From a virus: 64,000 nucleotides of DNA. Both the position numbers and the translations under genes were made by a program. The stretch lies in the IMG/VR virus record IMGVR_UViG_3300025892_000010; one strand, 5' to 3'. Positions 694 to 12,024 of this stretch are shown piece after piece; the first letter of the stretch is position 1, and each line of letters begins with the position of its first letter. Under the pieces are notes generated by a model, which worked only from the letters and a program-made list of their open reading frames with translations, made no database searches and had not been told where the DNA came from.

Positions 694-1304
694 TATTTTA
701 ATAGGTGTTTTGCGCTTATTGGAAAGTGGTCTTTCAAATGCTTTTCAATATGCGTTGCAACAACTCTAGTCTCCGCTTGTGTATCTTCTTTGATTCTTAA
801 ATTAACAACTCTTGCAAAGGCCATTAAACTACCTGACCAATACCATTCTGTCATCATATTTTGAGGCAATACCATTCTTGCCATTTCTGGTGCTATGTCA
901 GCCTCTAACATTTCACTATAAAATTCTTTAGCTGTTTTAATTAAATCTGTAATATCGTATTCAACTTCCTCATCACTAGAGCCTTGTTTTTTATCCTCTG
1001 CTCTTTTACGCCATAGAAAAGGTATATAAAATTCTGGTTTATCATCTACGTATCTTCTACTTACTTCATTCCACACTAAACCAACTTGATGTTTTACTAA
1101 TTGACGTGCAACAAATATAGGTGCTTTGATTAAGAATTGTAAACTAGTATGACCAAAAGGCGACCAATGGTCGTGTTCAGCCAAATACTTAATTAGTTTT
1201 TCATCTTTCTCATCTATTTGTTCTTTTCTTTTAGCAAATGAAACACGAGCAGCGTTAACTACCGATAAATCACTACCCATTTTATCTATTAATTGTACGT
1301 TCAT
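693..1304 (-). CDS. thyX: Flavin-dependent thymidylate synthase
   Basis: VNAARVSF, HWSPF, ARQLVKH...NEVSRRY ThyX signature. Confidence 0.95.
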   Translation of the reverse strand: MNVQLIDKMGSDLSVVNAARVSFAKRKEQIDEKDEKLIKYLAEHDHWSPFGHTSLQFLIKAPIFVARQLVKHQVGLVWNEVSRRYVDDKPEFYIPFLWRKRAEDKKQGSSDEEVEYDITDLIKTAKEFYSEMLEADIAPEMARMVLPQNMMTEWYWSGSLMAFARVVNLRIKEDTQAETRVVATHIEKHLKDHFPISAKHLLK

Positions 1305-1858
1305 ACCTCATTACCCCAATAATCCCAATTTTTATATGGTTTGTTTCTAGCAAATAACTCTATGTAAGGACCACCAACTAACCTTTCAATCTCTTTATGC
1401 ATTAAAGGTTTCTTTGAGTGTTCTTCTCTTTGAGAAACTACTAATTGTTTTACGTCTTTAAAAATTCTTTTTGGTCTGCCTTTAGTTGCAAGTAAACACA
1501 TTTCGGGATTGCCTCTAGTCCAATAACCTAAACCGGTAAACATTCCCATATTTGTTTTATTTGTTTTTGCCCAAGTAAAACCTACGGTCTTGTATTGAAA
1601 ACCCCAAGCCTCTATAACATCAAATGCTAAATCTAACATAGGGTCAATTACCCACATTAATAATACAGAGTTGTCAGCTGATATATCCTTAACAGGTAAA
1701 TCGCATATGTCTTTTAGTTCCATACAATTATAGTGTTGATTAGGATTTCTGCCCTCACCTTTCTTTGACCTTGATTTAAAATACCAAGGTGGGTCGGCAT
1801 ATATCACACCATATTTTTTATTTGGAAAGTTTATATTCAAAGTTTTGTGTCTCATCAT
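1301..1858 (-). CDS. MT-A70 family N6-adenine methyltransferase
   Basis: IYADPPW catalytic motif, GLGYWTRGNPE, HSKKP, YIELFAR. Confidence 0.9.
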   Translation of the reverse strand: MMRHKTLNINFPNKKYGVIYADPPWYFKSRSKKGEGRNPNQHYNCMELKDICDLPVKDISADNSVLLMWVIDPMLDLAFDVIEAWGFQYKTVGFTWAKTNKTNMGMFTGLGYWTRGNPEMCLLATKGRPKRIFKDVKQLVVSQREEHSKKPLMHKEIERLVGGPYIELFARNKPYKNWDYWGNEV

Positions 1859-2309
1859 TTATATGTACTTGTTTTGCACCATTTTTAATATGAAAATGTG
1901 TTGCCATTGGTGTTAATGGTGATAAAGTAACCAATCTTTTAAAATTATTTTCAATAGCCCACTCTCTTAATTTTATAATTATCTCTTTACCTGCACCTCT
2001 TTTTCTTGACCAAACGGTGTATGCAATAACAATTTCGCCTCTTTGACCATCTTGATTGGCCGCTTGAGACATATAATCCATTTCTCTTACCGTATATGGT
2101 ACTTCAGGACATAATGCAACACAAACAATCGCCTCAATTTCTTCATTATATTTTAGACCAAATATTTTTCTGCCGTTTGTAATTCTAAAACCTAAAGTTA
2201 ATTCTGGTCTAACAGGATCCTCTGACACATCTATGTCATCTAGTTCAACCAGTTCGGTGCCTTTTACCCATTTAAAAAAATCATCTATGTTATCTTTAAA
2301 TTTTTTCAT
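1818..2309 (-). CDS. GNAT-fold-like protein (start probably MKKFKD at 2309)
   Basis: YTVWSRKRGAGKEII resembles GNAT motif A; ATGA overlap with the gp43 stop. Confidence 0.5.
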   Translation of the reverse strand: MKKFKDNIDDFFKWVKGTELVELDDIDVSEDPVRPELTLGFRITNGRKIFGLKYNEEIEAIVCVALCPEVPYTVREMDYMSQAANQDGQRGEIVIAYTVWSRKRGAGKEIIIKLREWAIENNFKRLVTLSPLTPMATHFHIKNGAKQVHINDETQNFEYKLSK

Positions 2310-4795
2310 CCAAAAAATGCCTCTAAATTTGCCTTTGGTTCGTGTTCCCAACCGATTGCTTGTAATATAAATCGCATAGGATCCAAAAAGGTCTTTTCAA
2401 ATTGTGTATCTCTATCTATATATTGGTCTAGTTTAAACTCTTTTGGCAAACTAGTAATATAACTTATTACATCAAACTTAAATGGATTGGCTGGTATTAG
2501 TTTAATAAACTTAATCTTATCTCCTTCTTGTATAAAAGGAAACTTGTTTTGTAAACCAAACTCTTTTATTTGATGATTATATATCAACGCACCTTTAACG
2601 TGAATAGGTGTACCTTTGATAAAGATGTTTGCATTATCACGATACTTCTTCAAGTTATTACAACTTCTAGGAAAGGCAATTGACTCTGCTGGTAACGTCA
2701 TAAATTCTTTTCTAAAATCAGAAACTAACTTATGTAAATCTGTTTCTTCTTTTGACATAATAGTTTTAATTGCTTCTTTAATTTTAACTCTACAAACCTG
2801 TGGTGTTGATGATTTAACTGCCTCAATACCCATAAGTTTAAGTTTAGGGTCAGACAATCTAATGCCTTCTTCATCAATAACGTTTAACATATATCTTTTC
2901 TTCGCAACCCATATACCTTTGTTGGCAATAACTTCTCGTTTCATTACCATTGCATTTTTAAAAGCGTTTGAATAATCAGATAGTTCAGCAAACCATTTTT
3001 CAATTTCAGGCTCTAATCTACTATCACATACTCTACCTATAAAGTCTGTAATCTGGTCGTTTGTTTTACCTTGACAAGTTTTTTCTACAAGTTTATCCAA
3101 GGTTACGTAAATTGAATCTGTATCAGACGCAACAACATAATCTATTTTATCTTTTGTCTGTAATACTCTATTTAAATAATCATTCATTTTACCTTCAATG
3201 AAACGAATAATAAACTGACCTGCCGTGGTAATACCACTTGCCTGTCTTACATCATAGTATCTAAAATATTGGTTACCTACTGCACCATAAGCCGAGTTCA
3301 AGGCAATCTTTCTTGCCCATTGAATATTGTGACAACGAGATATTTCTTTTACCAGTTTAGGGTCTTTTGTTTTTTCATATTCTTTCTTTGCCTTTAACAT
3401 ACGTTTCTTATAAATGACACGTTCATTGTACATTGTTTCCATCATTTCAGGTAAGAAACCTTGACTATCATTTTTAAATTTTGCACCGTTTGGTGTAATA
3501 CAAGCACCCTCTGTTTTAAGATAATTAAGTGGTACTTTCATATCAATCATTTTATTAACATTGACGCCGTGACCACTTTCACCAAGTATTTTTTCTGGCG
3601 AAATATTGTATTGAATAATAATATGTGGATATAGTGAGTTAATATCAAACGATACCACCCATTTGTGCTGACCAACTTTAGGTTCTTTTACGTAAGCACC
3701 CTCATACTTTGTTAACTTAACATTGTCTTCTCTTGGTGGTACACATATCTTCTTCTTCATTAAATGGTTTGCAATCAATGTGTCCCATACTCTTACTTGC
3801 GAAAATATATCATCATAGTTTACTTTTGATTCATATGCAACGGTCAATGATAAGTCAATTAGACCTAGTTTATCTTCTAATGCGTCAACAATTTCTACGT
3901 CTTGAATATTGTAATCAATAAATGATTGAAAGTCTTTAGTATACCATTCTTTAAATGTATCGTATGGCATTTCATCTTTACCACGGCCAAGTTCTAGTTC
4001 ACCAATAAAATCTAGTCTATAACTTTCTTGTCGTGTAGGAATAAACCATTTATATAAGTCAAGGTAATCTAACATAGTAATACCAAACAACTTATAAACC
4101 GTTTGTGGTCTACCTCTTACAACAATCTCCTCACGATTAACTAAATTCCAAGGCGACATTCTATTTGCAACTTTATCGCCTGCAATCAGTTTAATTCTAT
4201 TCATCAAATAAGGTAAGTCAAAAAACTTGGTGTTCCAACCTGTGACAATATCTGGATGATTTTTAATCCAGAATTTCATAAACTCAAACATCAATTGTTT
4301 TTCATTTTTACAATAAACATAGGTAACATCTGGTCTATCTGTCTTGTATTGACCAACACCCCAAGTTATGATTTGTTTATTAGATTGATTTTTTACCGTG
4401 ATAGCCAACAACTCTTCAATAGGATTTTCTACATCTGGAAAACCATTTTCACAACTAGTTTCAATATCAAGTGTGAATATTTTAATATGTTCTTTTGAAA
4501 ATTCTATTGCTTCAGGATAATTTTGACCAATGTACTGATAATGGTATCTTTCAAGGCCATATAGTGGCGATTGTGCGCCATAGTCTTTTTTAAATTGACG
4601 TGCATTTCTAATATCATTAAACTTTATAGGTTTAAGATATTGTCCTTGTAAGGTTTTAAATTCTGTTTTTTCTGTTTGCGATAAGGCGTAGAGGGTTGGA
4701 CCAAAATCAATTTTTTCTTTGTAATCTTTCCCATTCATCACACCACGAATAAGAAGTTTACCTTTGTGTTCTATTACATTTTTATAAAAGTTCAT
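2306..4795 (-). CDS. gp43: Family B DNA polymerase
   Basis: DIET exonuclease motif, SFDINSLYP, KIALNSAYG, SDTDS, C-terminal clamp-binding LEAFFG. Confidence 0.97.
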   Translation of the reverse strand: MNFYKNVIEHKGKLLIRGVMNGKDYKEKIDFGPTLYALSQTEKTEFKTLQGQYLKPIKFNDIRNARQFKKDYGAQSPLYGLERYHYQYIGQNYPEAIEFSKEHIKIFTLDIETSCENGFPDVENPIEELLAITVKNQSNKQIITWGVGQYKTDRPDVTYVYCKNEKQLMFEFMKFWIKNHPDIVTGWNTKFFDLPYLMNRIKLIAGDKVANRMSPWNLVNREEIVVRGRPQTVYKLFGITMLDYLDLYKWFIPTRQESYRLDFIGELELGRGKDEMPYDTFKEWYTKDFQSFIDYNIQDVEIVDALEDKLGLIDLSLTVAYESKVNYDDIFSQVRVWDTLIANHLMKKKICVPPREDNVKLTKYEGAYVKEPKVGQHKWVVSFDINSLYPHIIIQYNISPEKILGESGHGVNVNKMIDMKVPLNYLKTEGACITPNGAKFKNDSQGFLPEMMETMYNERVIYKKRMLKAKKEYEKTKDPKLVKEISRCHNIQWARKIALNSAYGAVGNQYFRYYDVRQASGITTAGQFIIRFIEGKMNDYLNRVLQTKDKIDYVVASDTDSIYVTLDKLVEKTCQGKTNDQITDFIGRVCDSRLEPEIEKWFAELSDYSNAFKNAMVMKREVIANKGIWVAKKRYMLNVIDEEGIRLSDPKLKLMGIEAVKSSTPQVCRVKIKEAIKTIMSKEETDLHKLVSDFRKEFMTLPAESIAFPRSCNNLKKYRDNANIFIKGTPIHVKGALIYNHQIKEFGLQNKFPFIQEGDKIKFIKLIPANPFKFDVISYITSLPKEFKLDQYIDRDTQFEKTFLDPMRFILQAIGWEHEPKANLEAFFG

Positions 4796-5428: not shown

Positions 5429-5457
5429 ATCCTATCACAAAGACTTAAATTAGTCAA
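5429..5457 (-). promoter_or_regulatory. sigma70-type promoter, probably giving a leaderless mRNA
   Basis: TTGACT-N17-TAGGAT, 6 nt before ATG 5422. Confidence 0.6.
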
Positions 5458-6838
5458 TGCTGTATTTGGTTGTTATCACGTATTTTCTTTGGGGATTGAC
5501 CATAACGTTTAATCTCTTCATAAATGCACGGTCTAATAAGATAGGAGTTCTATCTTCTCTATCGTCAATGGTAAATTCTACATCTTTATAGAAACCACCG
5601 GCAAATTCTACATCTAGTTTTACGACATATCGGTCTTCATCATAATCTCTTAAGCCACCAACTTTAATCTCTTCTTTACGGACAATATCACTTGTAATAG
5701 TTTTACCTAATAAAGACCAAGTTATTTTATTACCATTGATTTTGTATTTGTCAGAGTGAATTACTGGCATTCCAGAATTACCCGTATCAAATTTTGAAAT
5801 TAATTCACCAAACGGTTTTATGGTCAAAATCTCCTTAAAACCACATTCCGTTGGCACAGAATATCTATTCTCCTCATTTGCAAAATGTTTAATTACTTCT
5901 TTTGCAATATTCATTTTAGTTGCTTCTTCTATACCCTCTGTACCAGGTGAAGAGTTTACTTCAAGAAAATATGGTGGTTTGTTTACTCTGTCTTTACTTG
6001 GTATAAAGTCAACAGCAGTCCAATATCCACCAACTGCCTTTGAGGCTAATAAGCATTGTTCTATTTCTAATTCTGTTAGTTTAATATTTTCTGGTTTAGA
6101 ACCTTGCGATACATTTGACCTAAAATCTCCTTCAATTACAGGTCGTTTCATAGCCGCTAAAAATTTACCACCTAGTATATGTACTCTGACATCATATTCT
6201 GTTTTAATATATTCTTGTATTAATAAATCTGTGTCTTCATCTTGTTTGTGTATAAGTTGTACAATAGAATCTAAACCTTTTGGACTATCTACAAATAAAA
6301 CACCAACACCTTTTGACCCTCTTAAAGTTTTCATAATTAAAGGAAACTTAATACCTGATTCATCAACTATCTCATTTGATTTTTCGGGGTCATTAATTAG
6401 TTTTGTTTGAGGTTGTGTTAGACCATAATCTGCAAGTCTTAATGAAGTTCTATATTTGTCAGCACACATATTAATTGTAGTTCTAGGATTTACCAACGTT
6501 GCATTGGCTCTTTCTAATATAGATACAAAGTCTAACCAACTATCTTTACGTGTAATAGAACCACGAACAATAGCAACGGTCATAGCACCAACTTCAAAAC
6601 CTTTTTTATCATCTTGATTATGAAATTTACGGATGCCGTCTTCGTAAGTGGTATAGCCACCTGTAAGTTTAAAAAGATAATATGGATAATTTAACTTATC
6701 ACATTCCTCTTTCAACCTATCGGCAGTATGAAATTCTTTTGCATTATCTGGCTCATCTGTAATAATGAGCAAACGCAAAAAGTCCTTTTTAGCCTCTGTT
6801 ATGTAATCTTTAAACTTGCTTACCTGCATTGCCTTCAT
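5450..6838 (-). CDS. RimK-like ATP-grasp ligase fused to a C-terminal retropepsin-like protease domain
   Basis: DKYRT, GSKGVGV, LIQEYI, DFRSNVSQG, LEVNSSPG; C-terminal KFDTG and ILLDR. Confidence 0.8.
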   Translation of the reverse strand: MKAMQVSKFKDYITEAKKDFLRLLIITDEPDNAKEFHTADRLKEECDKLNYPYYLFKLTGGYTTYEDGIRKFHNQDDKKGFEVGAMTVAIVRGSITRKDSWLDFVSILERANATLVNPRTTINMCADKYRTSLRLADYGLTQPQTKLINDPEKSNEIVDESGIKFPLIMKTLRGSKGVGVLFVDSPKGLDSIVQLIHKQDEDTDLLIQEYIKTEYDVRVHILGGKFLAAMKRPVIEGDFRSNVSQGSKPENIKLTELEIEQCLLASKAVGGYWTAVDFIPSKDRVNKPPYFLEVNSSPGTEGIEEATKMNIAKEVIKHFANEENRYSVPTECGFKEILTIKPFGELISKFDTGNSGMPVIHSDKYKINGNKITWSLLGKTITSDIVRKEEIKVGGLRDYDEDRYVVKLDVEFAGGFYKDVEFTIDDREDRTPILLDRAFMKRLNVMVNPQRKYVITTKYSID

Positions 6839-8725: not shown

Positions 8726-9388
8726 CTAAAATTCAGAGTCAGGTTCAATAGCAATCCAATACTGAATTGGTTTGCCTTTAGCTATAAAGTGAGATATTTT
8801 CTGTTGTGAAATTGCAACATCATAATCATCTGGTAACATCTTCATATTTTCTGTCTTAAAATAAGCAGTAAATGTTTTATCTGTATCACCTAATGATATT
8901 GAATAGTCGTTTGATGGTGTCTTTTTATCAACAGCAACAATACTCATAGTCTTACCATCACCTTTTACTGCAATGTCTGGTAGATTTAAAGTATTTACAC
9001 CTCTCATAAGTTTAGCAAGGTTATCTTTAGTCAATGTAAAGGTAACATACTTATCAGGCATATTGATTGTTTTTGTTGGTGCAACAACAACCGACTTATC
9101 TGCAAAGAAATATTTGATTGATTGTCTTCCGTTTGCGTCTTTGATTGTCATATTCTGACTACCATTAAATTTAAGTTCAGACTTATCAAATAAGTCATAT
9201 GCTCTTAAAAATTCTGGTAAATCATAGATAGCAAACTCACTTTCAAACTTCTCTTTAATTTCAGCCTCTGCTAAAATGTTTTTTAACGTAGAGATAGTTT
9301 GAATCTTACTGCCAGGTTTAACAAGAATATTCTGATTGATGTCAGAAAAATTTTTGAGAATGGCAATGGTATCACTTGTTAGGTTCAT
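8726..9388 (-). CDS. gp45: Sliding clamp
   Basis: LKNFSDINQ, FAIYDLPEFL, YWIAIE; synteny. Confidence 0.93.
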   Translation of the reverse strand: MNLTSDTIAILKNFSDINQNILVKPGSKIQTISTLKNILAEAEIKEKFESEFAIYDLPEFLRAYDLFDKSELKFNGSQNMTIKDANGRQSIKYFFADKSVVVAPTKTINMPDKYVTFTLTKDNLAKLMRGVNTLNLPDIAVKGDGKTMSIVAVDKKTPSNDYSISLGDTDKTFTAYFKTENMKMLPDDYDVAISQQKISHFIAKGKPIQYWIAIEPDSEF

Positions 9389-9413: not shown

Positions 9414-9487
9414 TGGAGCGGCTAGTAGGTAACGCTCCTACGTCTGCGAGTTGGTAACCCGCCGTAATACTTTTATACGATAGCCGC
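9414..9487 (-). tRNA. tRNA-Gly with ACC anticodon and encoded CCA
   Basis: Acceptor GCGGCTA/TAGCCGC, discriminator T then CCA, anticodon arm GCGGG-TTACCAA-CTCGC, T arm GTAGG-AGCGTTA-CCTAC. Confidence 0.85.
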
Positions 9488-9494
9488 ATTATTT

Positions 9495-9523
9495 AATATA
9501 TCAAATTTCATTGAAATTGGCAA
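9495..9523 (-). promoter_or_regulatory. sigma70-type promoter for tRNA and gp45 operon
   Basis: TTGCCA-N17-TATATT, 7 nt before the tRNA 5' end. Confidence 0.55.
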
Positions 9524-9534
9524 TGCTCCTTTGA

Positions 9535-10755
9535 TTATATAAGGACAAGTTCATTTTGTTTATGTACCTTGCCTATAACTGGTAAGGTTCCGTATATTTC
9601 CACATTTGTGTTAATAATAGGTAGTACAACCTCGCCGTTAATTTGTCTTTTAAAGTAAGAGTTACCAATATTAATTACTTCTTGAGCGTAATTTGTATTG
9701 TGATTTTTAACTCTTTCATCATATTGTTCTTCTAATTTTTGAATTGTATTCATAGTATCTAAAGTAGATGTATGTAATACAAGTCTAATAGTTTTACCTG
9801 CAAAGTTAGTATTGTTTGCAATAGCAGCTACTCTGGATAAATTTTTAGTCCAGTATGAAGCCGCACCTATAACATACAAATATTCATTTAGATGTTTTTC
9901 ACCTAGTTTAGTTTGTACATAACAAGATTCTTTAGCAGACAAACCACTATTAGGATATTGGTCTTTTGCTTTCTTATAACCTTGTTCTATCATCCAATCG
10001 TGTACTCTTTCAGGAGTCCAAGAATTAATATAAGGTCTTGAAGCATTATTATTTAAAAGTGATTGAGCTATAATGTTTTTAGTATTGTCTGTAAAATGAC
10101 TACCCTCGGTAACTTCATTTACCCAAGCATTAATCTCATCTAAATTTTTACCTAAATCTAAATCATTAATTAGTTCTTGACCTACTAAAATTACATCACC
10201 AGTTGAAGCAACACCTGTTGGGTCATCAATTAAATTAAACTTTAAATTATTTGTTGCTAAAGTTTTGTTATCTTTTACTGAATAAACGGCTACAATAGCA
10301 TTTTTAAAATCGCAAGTTTTCTTTAAAATTTCTACCCTAGTTCTACCTGTTAAAAATCTAATTGAACCATCTGGATATTCAACGATTGCTATAGGGTTGT
10401 ATTTTAATTTAAAACCGTTTTCTAAAATAGAGTTTCTAATACCAATGTGTTTTTTATTAGTTGTAGCTCTACCTTTTTGTTTACCATATTTGTTTTTTAG
10501 ATTGTCAAATAATACATCTATATCTCTTAATTCAAATCTCTGAAAGAATAATCCTTTATCTTCTCTATCATATAATTCAGGATAGGCTTCTTTAACAATA
10601 AGTCTATCGTGTGTTTTTAAATTCTCATCTGTAAATCTATCCGTATTATTAACGTTTACAATAATTGAATTGTCGTTATTAATAATTTTTGGTTGTGATT
10701 GAATATCAAAAGCTGTGTCTAGCCTTTGATTAGTTTGTGGAATATTTAATGTCAT
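9535..10755 (-). CDS. Hypothetical protein with ParB/Srx-like segment (start probably ATG 10755)
   Basis: SILENGF...PIAI...FLTGRTRVEIL resembles the ParB N-terminal GxxR motif. Confidence 0.45.
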   Translation of the reverse strand: MTLNIPQTNQRLDTAFDIQSQPKIINNDNSIIVNVNNTDRFTDENLKTHDRLIVKEAYPELYDREDKGLFFQRFELRDIDVLFDNLKNKYGKQKGRATTNKKHIGIRNSILENGFKLKYNPIAIVEYPDGSIRFLTGRTRVEILKKTCDFKNAIVAVYSVKDNKTLATNNLKFNLIDDPTGVASTGDVILVGQELINDLDLGKNLDEINAWVNEVTEGSHFTDNTKNIIAQSLLNNNASRPYINSWTPERVHDWMIEQGYKKAKDQYPNSGLSAKESCYVQTKLGEKHLNEYLYVIGAASYWTKNLSRVAAIANNTNFAGKTIRLVLHTSTLDTMNTIQKLEEQYDERVKNHNTNYAQEVINIGNSYFKRQINGEVVLPIINTNVEIYGTLPVIGKVHKQNELVLI

Positions 10756-11814: not shown

Positions 11815-12024
11815 TTAGTAACCTCTTGTTTGTTCAAGTTTCTTCATCTTTTTCTTGAAGTTCTTGATACCCTCTTTTTTCTTCTCACGCTTGATTTCAC
11901 TAGGCTTTTGATAGTATTGTTTAGCTCTTAACTCTTTTACAATACCCTCTTTTTGTACTTTTTTCTTAAGCACTCTCATAGCTTTTTCAAGGTTTCCTTT
12001 TCTTACTTCTACAACTATTGACAA
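11815..12024 (-). CDS. rpsU: Ribosomal protein bS21
   Basis: VEVRKGNLEKAMRVLKKK...YYQKPSE. Confidence 0.9.
   Translation of the reverse strand: MSIVVEVRKGNLEKAMRVLKKKVQKEGIVKELRAKQYYQKPSEIKREKKKEGIKNFKKKMKKLEQTRGY

What the first reader, a model, noticed from the sequence alone, without database searches (positions are those of the whole stretch)
9414..9487. tRNA-Gly with ACC anticodon and non-canonical T-loop
Seen: intact cloverleaf with Gly identity elements (G1-C72, C2-G71, G3-C70, U73), encoded CCA and its own promoter, but anticodon ACC and T-loop AGCGTTA instead of TTCGAAT. Known: bacteria decode Gly with GCC/TCC/CCC anticodons, and A34 tRNAs other than Arg-ACG are very rare. By eye GGT is the dominant Gly codon in the Gly-rich fibre genes. 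Inference: a tRNA tuned to phage GGT codons and/or resistant to host anticodon nucleases.
Basis: partly seen in the sequence, partly recalled or inferred. Interest (0 to 1): 0.7.

Follow-up and report, generated by a model that had tools for sequence, protein, structure and literature searches.

The report
Overlooked phage glycine tRNA, ACC anticodon
A phage of the ocean's most abundant bacteria carries a real, conserved glycine tRNA with an anticodon (ACC) that cells almost never use and a rebuilt 'elbow' that hides it from gene finders; it most likely helps read the phage's favourite glycine codon, but it also looks like glycine tRNAs that avoid the ribosome.

Summary
Window 9487..9414 (minus strand) is a 74-nt tRNA gene with full bacterial glycine identity, encoded CCA, anticodon ACC and T-loop AGCGTTA. 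ARAGORN and default Rfam scans miss it; a local Rfam scan gives 45.2 bits. It belongs to an unannotated viral tRNA family (Gly-ACC/GCC/UCC, Thr, Ala) with strong stem covariation. The family is a T4-type tRNA-Gly with a remodelled elbow (G18→A, U55→G). ACC is fixed in pelagimyophages, including HTVC008M, where it is the only tRNA, and Mosig.

Favouring a decoder: GGT is 73% of phage Gly codons against 41% in a SAR11-type host genome. It is the phage's most over-used codon. The host has single Gly-GCC and Gly-UCC genes. The anticodon loop never varies.

Against it: the elbow and a calculated weak EF-Tu-binding T-stem (−9.4 versus −11.0 kcal/mol) match staphylococcal non-ribosomal tRNA-Gly. No Mom/Fem-type transferase was found.

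Verdict: a real tRNA-Gly(ACC). It probably reads GGU (about 0.5); a non-ribosomal glycine carrier is the main rival (about 0.2). A34 versus I34 is untested.

This scan has noted ACC tRNA-Gly look-alikes in other phages, mostly next to Mom genes; this family lacks Mom.

The parts
9414..9487 (-). tRNA-Gly(ACC) gene, 74 nt including the encoded CCA
   Evidence: RF00005 45.2 bits; family model R1 93.6 bits; covariation; cloverleaf MFE
9453..9455 (-). Anticodon ACC (A34 = 9455) within the invariant loop U32-U33-ACC-A37-A38
   Evidence: Sequence. The loop is TTACCAA in all 38 ACC copies. Positions 32, 33 and 35-38 show zero changes on the tree.
9430..9436 (-). Non-canonical T-loop AGCGTTA (A54 G55 C56 G57 U58 U59 A60); family consensus NGCRNTA
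   Evidence: T4 tRNA-Gly has TTCGATT at the same columns.
9468..9474 (-). D-loop AAAAGTA: G18 replaced by A, G19 kept (T4: AATGGTA)
   Evidence: Ungapped alignment with T4 tRNA-Gly
9495..9523 (-). Sigma-70-type promoter: TTGCCA, 17 nt, TG-extended TATATT. The -10 ends 7 nt before G1, so the start lies at or next to the mature 5' end.
   Evidence: Scanner, 10 of 12 matches, TG present; same architecture in 18 of 23 distinct ACC upstream regions
8726..9388 (-). gp45 sliding-clamp gene. Its SD (GAGGAG) and ATG lie 25 nt after the CCA, so it is probably co-transcribed with the tRNA.
   Evidence: Pfam gp45-slide_C 9e-14. The next ATG lies 4-23 nt after the CCA in all ACC copies.
9535..10755 (-). 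Upstream 406-aa gene: ParB-N domain plus a weakly nuclease-like C-terminal part. It is a neighbour, not shown to be functionally linked.
   Evidence: AF2 pLDDT 89; Foldseek ParB-N, probability about 1; VIA Z 10.0 to 5k5d_B. Adjacent to the tRNA only in the 5 closest relatives and in L013.
11815..12024 (-). Phage ribosomal protein S21 gene. In HTVC008M-type genomes the tRNA sits directly upstream of S21.
   Evidence: Pfam Ribosomal_S21 7e-16; HTVC008M context

Best explanation
This is a genuine, selected phage tRNA gene. It descends from the T4-type tRNA-Gly, and its elbow has been remodelled as a pair (D-loop G18->A together with T-loop U55->G; G19 and C56 kept).

Proposed mechanism:
1. It is transcribed from its own conserved sigma-70-type promoter at the head of the clamp/clamp-loader genes. 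The start lies at or within a base or two of the mature 5' end.
2. It is released from the downstream mRNA by 3' processing at the encoded CCA.
3. It is charged with glycine by the host's alpha2beta2 GlyRS, for which it carries every identity element.
4. It is used on the ribosome to read GGU by an A34:U Watson-Crick pair.

This supplements a host that has only one tRNA-Gly(GCC) gene, which reads GGU by G.U wobble. The phage puts 73% of its glycine codons on GGU, so GGU is about 5% of all its codons and more in its Gly-rich structural proteins.

Shown: gene, fold, family, conservation, promoter motif, identity elements, codon statistics, host tRNA set. Inferred: expression level, charging, ribosomal use, and that A34 stays unmodified.
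For: - Real tRNA.
- T4 tRNA-Gly(UCC) aligns over 74 of 74 nt without gaps. It has the same acceptor stem as Mosig, the same positions 8-9 and the same D-stem.
- ACC is kept in 38 copies (16 distinct sequences, 5 anticodon stems), all fully paired, all with U73 and CCA.
- The acceptor identity changes with the anticodon in the Thr and Ala members, as expected if the synthetases matter.
- The anticodon loop UU-NNN-AA is invariant in all 54 sequences. N34 changes twice, against 5-8 changes at free sites.
- GGT is 72.6% of Gly codons in the window, while other four-codon boxes split T and A about evenly.
- The SAR11-type genome G318 uses GGT 41% and GGA 39%. It has one Gly-GCC, one Gly-UCC and no CCC, and it encodes GlyQ.
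- GGT is the top excess codon of 61 (+28 per 1000), and GGA is among the most depleted.
- The wobble base tracks codon usage across sub-lineages, also at equal GC.
- It is the only tRNA in HTVC008M, G044 and G446.
- In large phage tRNA arrays, the family-type Thr-GGU and Ala-UGC members fill slots not seen among the canonical tRNAs in the fetched parts of those contigs.
- No Mom, FemAB or Acetyltransf_6 in HTVC008M, Mosig or G044, and no Mom-like frame in the window.
- SAR11 genomes carry only about 32 tRNA genes.
Against: - The elbow lacks G18 and U55, as do staphylococcal non-proteogenic tRNA-Gly.
- With the published additive table, the T-stem G49-C65/U50-A64/A51-U63 calculates to -9.4 kcal/mol. 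All 16 ACC sequences fall between -9.1 and -9.7. Bacterial, T4 and host tRNA-Gly give -11.0, and the non-proteogenic species -9.5. No family member has G51-C63.
- One phage (L003/L103) carries a canonical and a family-type tRNA-Gly(UCC) in tandem.
- The codon-usage association rests on about two wobble-base changes. One ACC contig (L008) has only 54% GGT.
- The host genome's identity as SAR11 is inferred, not named.
- No RNA evidence of expression, charging or modification: only contigs from RNA libraries were available.
- The literature holds that A34 in tRNA-Gly is avoided in nearly all organisms.
Confidence: 0.5

Rival explanations
1. Non-ribosomal glycine carrier. The tRNA is charged by GlyRS but is kept away from EF-Tu and the ribosome by its weak T-stem and altered elbow. 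It hands glycine to a phage enzyme, for example a Mom-like DNA-adenine modifier or another aminoacyl-transferase, as staphylococcal NP tRNA-Gly does for Fem transferases.
For: - It lacks G18 and U55 like the NP tRNAs.
- Its calculated EF-Tu affinity of -9.1 to -9.7 equals that of NP tRNA (-9.5) and is 1.3-1.9 kcal/mol weaker than tRNA-Gly norms, in all 16 ACC sequences despite 8 different T-stem combinations.
- A tandem canonical plus family-type Gly-UCC pair occurs in L103.
- Mom is known to use Gly-tRNA-Gly.
- A ParB-N-fold gene abuts the tRNA here and in distant L013.
- A weak GNAT-like ORF coupled to an MT-A70 gene lies 7 kb downstream.
- Unchecked scan notes describe ParB-Mom-tRNA-Gly cassettes in other phages.
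Against: - No Mom (PF25680), FemAB or Acetyltransf_6 in HTVC008M, Mosig or G044. No Mom-like frame in the window or its 6 closest relatives, and none in L013.
- The GNAT-like ORF is absent from HTVC008M, which has the tRNA. In Mosig it lies about 100 kb from the tRNA. It also carries an acetyl-CoA-type RKRGAG motif.
- The ParB-like gene is adjacent in only 6 of about 100 loci.
- The anticodon loop is a canonical 7-nt U33/A37 loop and never varies, unlike the NP tRNAs.
- N34 is constrained and matches codon usage.
- Thr and Ala members of the same scaffold sit in ordinary tRNA arrays, with near-normal calculated EF-Tu values for their classes.
- The EF-Tu model has known decoding outliers.
Confidence: 0.2
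2. Decoder with inosine. Host TadA deaminates A34 to I34, so the tRNA reads GGU, GGC and (weakly) GGA, covering 98% of phage Gly codons with one tRNA.
For: - The host-type genomes encode a TadA-type deaminase and tRNA-Arg(ACG).
- The phage loop shares U33-A34-C35 with the TadA substrate.
- GGU, GGC and GGA together make up 98.5% of Gly codons.
Against: - The loop differs from tRNA-Arg(ACG) at positions 32, 36 and 37. Bacterial TadA is known (my knowledge) to read G36.
- HTVC008M and Mosig encode no PF00383-family deaminase of their own.
- RNA-library contigs show no T>C change at 9455, which is weak evidence because they are contigs and DNA may be present.
Confidence: 0.1
3. Cis-acting tRNA-like punctuation. 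The element mainly serves the downstream mRNA (clamp, S21 and others) as a 5' structure or processing signal that sets the mRNA's 5' end and stability, and any tRNA product is secondary.
For: In the ACC copies (all 38 checked) the next gene's first ATG follows the CCA within 4-23 nt, and 18 of 23 distinct upstream regions have a promoter that would start transcription at about G1. The downstream gene differs between lineages, which suggests a portable promoter-tRNA cassette.
Against: A processing signal would not need U73, C35-C36, a perfect anticodon loop or an encoded CCA to be conserved in every copy. It would also not need acceptor identity to switch with the anticodon in the Thr and Ala members. 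HTVC008M-type and GCC copies lack the promoter yet keep the tRNA.
Confidence: 0.07
4. Anti-defence tRNA. The altered elbow and/or A34 make it resistant to, or a decoy for, a host or competitor tRNA-targeting toxin, such as a T-loop or anticodon nuclease or a GNAT toxin that acetylates Gly-tRNA.
For: Only circumstantial.
Against: No tRNA-Gly-specific nuclease is known to me. Nothing in the window or relatives points to such a system, and the changes are ancient and shared by Thr and Ala members in unrelated phages.
Confidence: 0.05

Closest known systems
Bacteriophage T4 tRNA-Gly (UCC), annotated in X03016 at 3423-3496 and in >330 Tequatrovirus records
   Same: Same length (74 nt) and an ungapped alignment. 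It shares the acceptor stem GCGGATA/TATCCGC with Mosig, the same positions 8-9, the same D-stem with the U13.U22 mismatch, U73 and an encoded CCA, and it sits in a T4-like phage.
   Different: T4 has anticodon UCC, the canonical D-loop AATGGTA (G18 G19), the T-loop TTCGATT and the tight EF-Tu T-stem G49.U65/U50-A64/G51-C63 (-11.0). It lies in a tRNA cluster processed by RNase P. The window tRNA has ACC, A18, G55 and a T-stem calculated at -9.4, and it stands alone behind its own promoter.
[quoted passage not shown]
   Same: Full Gly identity set, loss of G18 and U55, and a weak calculated EF-Tu T-stem (about -9.5).
   Different: The NP tRNAs also lack G19, have an altered anticodon stem-loop, keep UCC, and coexist with Fem transferases. 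Here G19 and C56 are kept, the 7-nt loop is canonical and invariant, N34 tracks codon usage, and no Fem/Mom-type enzyme was found.
Bacterial tRNA-Arg(ACG), the one common A34 tRNA of bacteria, deaminated by TadA to I34
   Same: A34 is encoded in the gene, and U33-A34-C35 is shared. The host-type genome has both this tRNA and TadA.
   Different: Positions 32, 36 and 37 differ. Gly is the four-codon box in which A34 is reported as avoided in nearly all organisms.
Phage tRNAs that match phage-enriched codons (codon-compensation model; my knowledge, Bailly-Bechet et al. 2007)
   Same: The phage's only tRNA matches its most over-used codon relative to the host.
   Different: Compensation is normally achieved with standard anticodons and canonical tRNA bodies. 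Here it would use a near-forbidden anticodon and a remodelled elbow.
ParB-Mom-tRNA-Gly cassettes noted elsewhere in this scan (unpublished AI notes), and phage Mu Mom, which uses Gly-tRNA-Gly (PMC13219725)
   Same: An odd phage tRNA-Gly, often with ACC, missed by gene finders, and a ParB-fold gene next door.
   Different: No Mom gene in the window, HTVC008M, Mosig, G044 or L013. The tRNA here is full-sized with an intact anticodon loop.

Membership tests
tRNA (Rfam RF00005) | Covariance-model score at or above the gathering threshold over the full model | tested here: met
   45.2 bits against 29, model positions 1-71 of 71, when scanned locally. It is missed by default and 64-kb filters and by ARAGORN.
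tRNA (Rfam RF00005) | Four-arm cloverleaf supported by compensatory changes | tested here: met
   99.3% of cells paired; 15 of 20 pairs change on both sides; 0 of 500 shuffles reach the observed values
tRNA (Rfam RF00005) | Canonical elbow: G18-G19 in the D-loop with T54-Psi55-C56 in the T-loop | tested here: not met
   A18 G19 in the D-loop and A54 G55 C56 in the T-loop. Only the G19/C56 pair is retained.
tRNA (Rfam RF00005) | 7-nt anticodon loop with U33 and a purine at 37 | tested here: met
   The loop is UUACCAA, and positions 32, 33, 37 and 38 are invariant in all 54 sequences
Bacterial tRNA-Gly (substrate of alpha2beta2 GlyRS) | Identity set U73, G1-C72, C2-G71, G3-C70, C35, C36 | tested here: met
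   All are present in the window and in every ACC, GCC and UCC member. The determinants are listed in PMC7826273. GlyQ is present in the host-type genomes.
Bacterial tRNA-Gly (substrate of alpha2beta2 GlyRS) | Actually aminoacylated with glycine | not testable with these tools
   Needs charging assays or acid-gel Northern blots
Bacterial tRNA-Gly (proteogenic) | Tight EF-Tu T-stem (class mean about -11.0 kcal/mol; G49.U65 and G51-C63 typical) | tested here: not met
   Calculated -9.4 for the window and -9.1 to -9.7 for all ACC members. T4 and host UCC give -11.0. This is a model calculation, not a measurement.
Non-proteogenic tRNA-Gly (Staphylococcus type) | Loss of G18-G19 and U55 | tested here: inconclusive
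   G18 and U55 are lost, but G19 is kept
Non-proteogenic tRNA-Gly (Staphylococcus type) | Altered or shortened anticodon loop | tested here: not met
   The loop is a canonical 7-nt loop and is invariant
Non-proteogenic tRNA-Gly (Staphylococcus type) | A cognate aminoacyl-tRNA transferase (Fem family) in the same genome | tested here: not met
   PF02388 and PF13480 were not found in HTVC008M, Mosig or G044
Mom-linked phage tRNA-Gly | Mom (PF25680) gene adjacent or in the same genome | tested here: not met
   No hit in W01, W02 or G044 at E <= 0.1; none by phmmer in the window and 6 relatives; none in L013. A very distant transferase cannot be excluded.
TadA substrate (A34 to I34) | Anticodon loop like that of tRNA-Arg(ACG), in particular U33-A34-C35-G36 | tested here: not met
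   The phage has C36. The host tRNA-Arg(ACG) loop is CUACGGA against UUACCAA in the phage. Actual deamination was not tested.

The most novel reading that the evidence does not exclude
The remodelled elbow (A18/G55) plus the uniformly weak EF-Tu T-stem define a class of phage tRNAs built to stay off the ribosome. On this reading, the single tRNA kept by pelagimyophages is a private glycine donor for a still unrecognised, non-Mom and non-Fem enzyme. One candidate is the very abundant small GNAT-like/MT-A70 pair acting with the ParB-fold protein, which would decorate phage DNA or another target in the viruses of the ocean's most abundant bacteria.
Probability: 0.15. Interest if true: 0.8.

Novelty: new variant of a known kind. 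Interest (0 to 1): 0.62.

Why it matters
[quoted passage not shown] Here ACC is stably selected across a whole clade of abundant marine phages with cultured members (HTVC008M and Mosig on Pelagibacter HTCC1062). That makes the question testable in a natural system: does A34 stay unmodified, what does it read, and at what cost?

The family also shows a co-varied tRNA elbow (G18.Psi55 replaced by A18/G55) in Gly, Thr and Ala tRNAs. This elbow removes the targets of TruB, and often of TrmA. It may also change how the many proteins that read the elbow recognise the tRNA.

There is a practical point as well. ARAGORN finds 8 of 60 family members. The published tRNAscan-SE survey lists HTVC008M with no tRNA, and Mosig's record annotates a protein over the gene. 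Phage tRNA censuses and tRNA-based host predictions for marine T4-like phages are therefore incomplete.

Tried and rejected
- **Default detection.** ARAGORN on the window and Rfam with gathering or 64-kb evalue filters gave no hit. This is a filter effect, not absence.
- **Near-identity search of the phage collection** with 4 kb: no match.
- **RNA evidence.** Four metatranscriptome runs hold the stretch. Only contigs could be laid. They cover the tRNA with no other letter at 9455. Expression, ends, strand and editing cannot be read from contigs, and DNA carry-over is possible, so this is no evidence either way.
- **Published infection transcriptomes** use podophages, not HTVC008M.
- **Reaching the host through the phage S21 protein** failed: the nearest genomes were Desulfobacterales and Bdellovibrionales. 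An order-level search from a 'Rickettsiales' MAG was blind, because no names are shown. The host-type genome was finally inferred from Hsp20 identity, genome size, GC content and tRNA count.
- **A named counterpart for the UCC versions** was not found in the phage collection.
- **Searches for Mom, FemAB, Acetyltransf_6 and a PF00383 deaminase** were negative in HTVC008M and Mosig, and (except the deaminase, not searched there) in G044.
- **Generic GNAT probe:** marginal hits only.
- **The 163-aa GNAT-like ORF** folded at pLDDT 50.6 from a shallow alignment, so no fold search was run on it. PDB by sequence gave only E 0.31.
- **Pfam on 51 homologues of the 406-aa protein:** nothing.
- **Complex prediction** was not used, because no protein-protein claim is made.
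- **Literature searches** for phage Gly-ACC tRNAs or an A18/G55 elbow found nothing relevant in the open-access library.
Full report
**1. Observation**

The feature lies on the minus strand, 9487 to 9414. It folds by itself into a cloverleaf (-27.3 kcal/mol, z -3.24). It has a 7-bp acceptor stem (G1-C72, C2-G71, G3-C70), U73 and an encoded CCA. The D-stem has three pairs plus a U.U, with the D-loop AAAAGUA. The 5-bp anticodon stem carries the loop UUACCAA. The variable region is 4 nt, and the 5-bp T-stem carries the loop AGCGUUA.

ARAGORN finds no tRNA in the whole window. Neither does Rfam, with gathering thresholds or in 'evalue' mode over 64 kb. Scanned locally, the Rfam tRNA model scores 45.2 bits against a gathering score of 29 over the full model. 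The negatives are therefore filter losses.

**2. Relatives and family**

The region matches two cultured Pelagibacter myophages, Mosig and HTVC008M. In Mosig a 'hypothetical protein' CDS is annotated over the element. In HTVC008M nothing is annotated there, although ARAGORN calls that copy tRNA-Gly(acc). The published pelagimyophage survey (tRNAscan-SE) lists HTVC008M with 0 tRNAs (PMC7029224).

I scanned IMG/VR with the D-arm plus UU-NNN-AA, leaving the anticodon open. It gave 119 family copies plus two chance matches:
- 53 Gly-UCC copies (29 distinct sequences)
- 38 Gly-ACC copies (16 distinct)
- 13 Gly-GCC copies (1 distinct)
- 13 Thr-GGU copies
- 1 Thr-UGU copy
- 1 Ala-UGC copy

All share a T-loop of the form NGCRNUA, which was not part of the search pattern. 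The D-arm's invariance, in contrast, follows from the search pattern itself.

On 54 distinct sequences, 99.3% of stem cells pair, and 15 of 20 pairs change on both sides. No shuffle or slid control approaches this. A covariance model (R1) finds one copy in the window (93.6 bits) and one each in HTVC008M and Mosig. ARAGORN detects only 8 of the 60 distinct family sequences tested.

**3. Origin**

The first 24 nt hit the annotated tRNA-Gly of T4, T2 and more than 330 Tequatrovirus records. T4 tRNA-Gly(UCC) aligns over all 74 nt without a gap. It has Mosig's acceptor stem, positions 8-9 and D-stem.

The differences are concentrated in three places:
- The elbow: D-loop AAUGGUA becomes AAAAGUA, and T-loop UUCGAUU becomes NGCRNUA. 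That is G18 to A and U55 to G, with G19 and C56 kept.
- The first three T-stem pairs.
- The wobble base.

ACC and GCC carriers are close pelagimyophage relatives of the window (clamp loader 66-100% and 77-85% identical). UCC carriers are more distant T4-like phages (DNA polymerase 36-50%). The likely history is an ancestral UCC that changed to ACC in pelagimyophages, with one A-to-G switch. On a tree of 43 Gly-type sequences, N34 changes twice.

**4. Context**

Upstream lies TTGCCA, then 17 nt, then a TG-extended TATATT ending 7 nt before G1. Of 23 distinct ACC upstream regions, 18 have the same layout ending 7-8 nt before G1, against 0 of 6 GCC and 2 of 41 UCC regions. This places the transcription start at or beside the mature 5' end (inference).

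The CCA is followed within 4-23 nt by the first ATG of the next gene. That gene is most often the gp45 clamp, as here (8726-9388), or ribosomal protein S21 in HTVC008M-type genomes.

The rest of the window is a T4-like replication and structural block: gp44, gp62, RegA, DNA polymerase, ThyX, Hsp20, S21 and a CobS-like ATPase.

**5. Evidence for decoding**

*Codon usage in the phage.* In 61 ORFs of the window (19,578 codons, 33.8% GC), Gly codons are GGT 72.6%, GGC 11.8%, GGA 14.0% and GGG 1.5%. The Ala, Val, Pro, Thr, Ser and Leu four-codon boxes split T and A about evenly.

*Host genome.* Three 1.2-1.3 Mb alphaproteobacterial genomes stood out in a 401-genome class sample, with Hsp20 53-64% identical to the phage's.

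One of them, G318, has:
- 34 tRNA matches, including one Gly-GCC, one Gly-UCC, no Gly-CCC, and Arg-ACG
- 31% GC in a 74-kb sample
- Gly codons GGT 41%, GGC 13%, GGA 39%, GGG 8%
- GlyQ and a TadA-type deaminase

Its Gly tRNAs have canonical elbows. SAR11 genomes average 32 tRNA genes.

*Excess demand.* GGT is the codon with the largest excess in the window over this host (53.1 against 24.9 per 1000). GGA is among the most depleted. GGT also ranks first in the pooled other ACC contigs, though barely ahead of GAC.

*Wobble base and codon usage.* Across sub-lineages, nine of ten ACC groups have GGA at 17% or below. All sixteen UCC groups have GGA at 23% or above, including one group at the same GC content. 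L008 is the exception.

*Other points.*
- The tRNA is the only tRNA in HTVC008M, G044 and G446.
- Positions 32, 33 and 35-38 never change, while free sites change 5-8 times.
- In large tRNA arrays, the family-type Thr-GGU and Ala-UGC members occupy slots that the canonical tRNAs in the fetched parts of those contigs do not fill.

**6. Evidence against simple decoding**

[quoted passage not shown] Proteogenic tRNA-Gly uses G49.U65, U50-A64 or C50-G64, and G51-C63. The NP species use A49-U65, U50-A64 and A51-U63 (PMC7826273).

I applied the additive table of Schrader and Uhlenbeck (PMC3239215). The calculated values, in kcal/mol, are:

| tRNA | Calculated value |
|---|---|
| Window tRNA | -9.4 |
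| All 16 ACC sequences (8 T-stem combinations) | -9.1 to -9.7 |
| Family GCC | -10.0 |
| Family UCC | -8.1 to -9.5 |
| Family Thr-GGU | -9.4 to -10.0 |
| Family Ala | -9.6 |
| Bacterial tRNA-Gly class means | -10.8 to -11.0 |
| T4 tRNA-Gly and host UCC | -11.0 |
| Staphylococcal NP species | -9.5 |

No family member has G51-C63. In L003/L103, a canonical tRNA-Gly(UCC) lies 8 nt from a family-type tRNA-Gly(UCC).

These are model values. The same paper lists single-copy outliers that must decode, and it reports non-additive G50.U64 stems.

**7. Testing the carrier rival**

Earlier notes of this scan (unchecked) tie odd phage tRNA-Gly(ACC) look-alikes to ParB-Mom cassettes. Mom does use Gly-tRNA-Gly (PMC13219725).

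Results here:
- Mom (PF25680), FemAB and Acetyltransf_6 are absent from HTVC008M, Mosig and the 109-kb relative G044. Mom is present twice in unrelated large phages that carry the Thr version.
- No frame of the window or six relatives resembles Mom.
- The 406-aa gene just upstream has no Pfam or PHROG match. It folds confidently (pLDDT 89) into a ParB-N domain (Foldseek probability about 1; VIA Z 10.0) plus a C-terminal part with only background-level resemblance to PD-(D/E)xK nucleases.
- That gene abuts the tRNA only in the five closest relatives and, as a 26%-identical homologue, in the distant UCC contig L013. There it is followed by 2OG-Fe(II) oxygenases and a helicase, not by a transferase.
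- A 163-aa ORF (1818-2309) gives a sub-threshold GNAT signal (E 0.011) and overlaps an MT-A70 gene. The pair recurs in G044, and the ORF recurs in Mosig about 100 kb from the tRNA. It is not found in HTVC008M. Its model was too poor to search with.

The specific ParB-Mom-tRNA cassette is therefore not present. A hidden partner cannot be excluded.

**8. A34 or I34**

The host TadA substrate has the loop CUACGGA, and the phage tRNA has UUACCAA. HTVC008M and Mosig encode no deaminase of that family. Contigs from RNA libraries show no change at 9455 but are not decisive. I consider unmodified A34 the more likely state.

**9. Verdict**

The gene, its fold, its glycine identity, the ACC anticodon, the promoter and the GGT bias are all confirmed. 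It is a new variant of a known kind: a phage tRNA of T4 tRNA-Gly descent with an almost universally avoided anticodon and a co-varied, non-canonical elbow.

A GGU-decoding helper tRNA is the best-supported function (about 0.5). An EF-Tu-avoiding glycine carrier is a serious rival (about 0.2). An inosine form, a punctuation element and an anti-defence role are minor rivals.

The open-access literature I could search does not describe this tRNA, its family or the elbow variant.

Noticed in passing
window 9535-10755 (-): A 406-aa protein without any Pfam or PHROG match folds (pLDDT 89) as a ParB-N domain (Z 10 to the pNOB8 ParB-N) plus a C-terminal part that weakly resembles PD-(D/E)xK nucleases. 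There are 114 distant homologues in metagenomes, and R96 is invariant within a conserved Q..R..G.N block that is followed by a GRTR motif.
   Followed up: partly
window 1301-2309 (-): A small GNAT-like ORF (163 aa, RKRGAG motif, PF00583 below threshold) overlaps the start of an MT-A70 DNA-methyltransferase-family gene. The GNAT-like protein has more than 8000 clusters of 87-92% identical homologues, so it is among the most abundant marine phage genes. It is present in Mosig and G044 and absent from HTVC008M.
   Followed up: partly
L001 2998-3093 (Mosig MT647606 7774-7869): The CDS annotated as 'hypothetical protein' Mosig_000011 overlies the tRNA-Gly(ACC) gene and is probably a mis-annotation. 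HTVC008M's records leave its copy unannotated.
   Followed up: yes
window 11815-12024 (-): The phage S21 ribosomal protein's closest cellular relatives in the genome collection, by the pattern-based search, were Desulfobacterales and Bdellovibrionales at 45-60% identity, not SAR11.
   Followed up: no
L103 7496-7651 and 8203-8600: A distant T4-like phage carries a canonical tRNA-Gly(UCC) and a family-type tRNA-Gly(UCC) 8 nt apart. ARAGORN also calls a permuted tmRNA-like gene (tag ANDNFAPQGFALAA) about 550 nt away.
   Followed up: partly
L044 1847-1922: ARAGORN calls a tRNA with a four-base anticodon (ctct) inside a large phage tRNA array. The same contigs (G045/G046) carry two Mom (PF25680) genes and a family-type tRNA-Thr(GGU).
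   Followed up: no
L008 6564-6637: An ACC copy with a UCC-like body sits in a 39%-GC contig that uses only 54% GGT and 24% GGA. This is the one case where ACC does not go with an extreme GGT bias, and it branches next to the UCC clade.
   Followed up: partly
window 9463-9507: In three marine metatranscriptome runs the assembly graph branches inside the conserved 5' half of the tRNA, where a second variant with a different promoter joins. Several family variants therefore co-occur in the same samples.
   Followed up: partly
window 5450-6838 (-): A RimK-type ATP-grasp ligase is fused to a putative ATP-dependent zinc-protease domain. It sits between RegA and a DUF6561 gene, close to the phage's S21 and tRNA, so the region has a cluster of translation-related cargo.
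   Followed up: no
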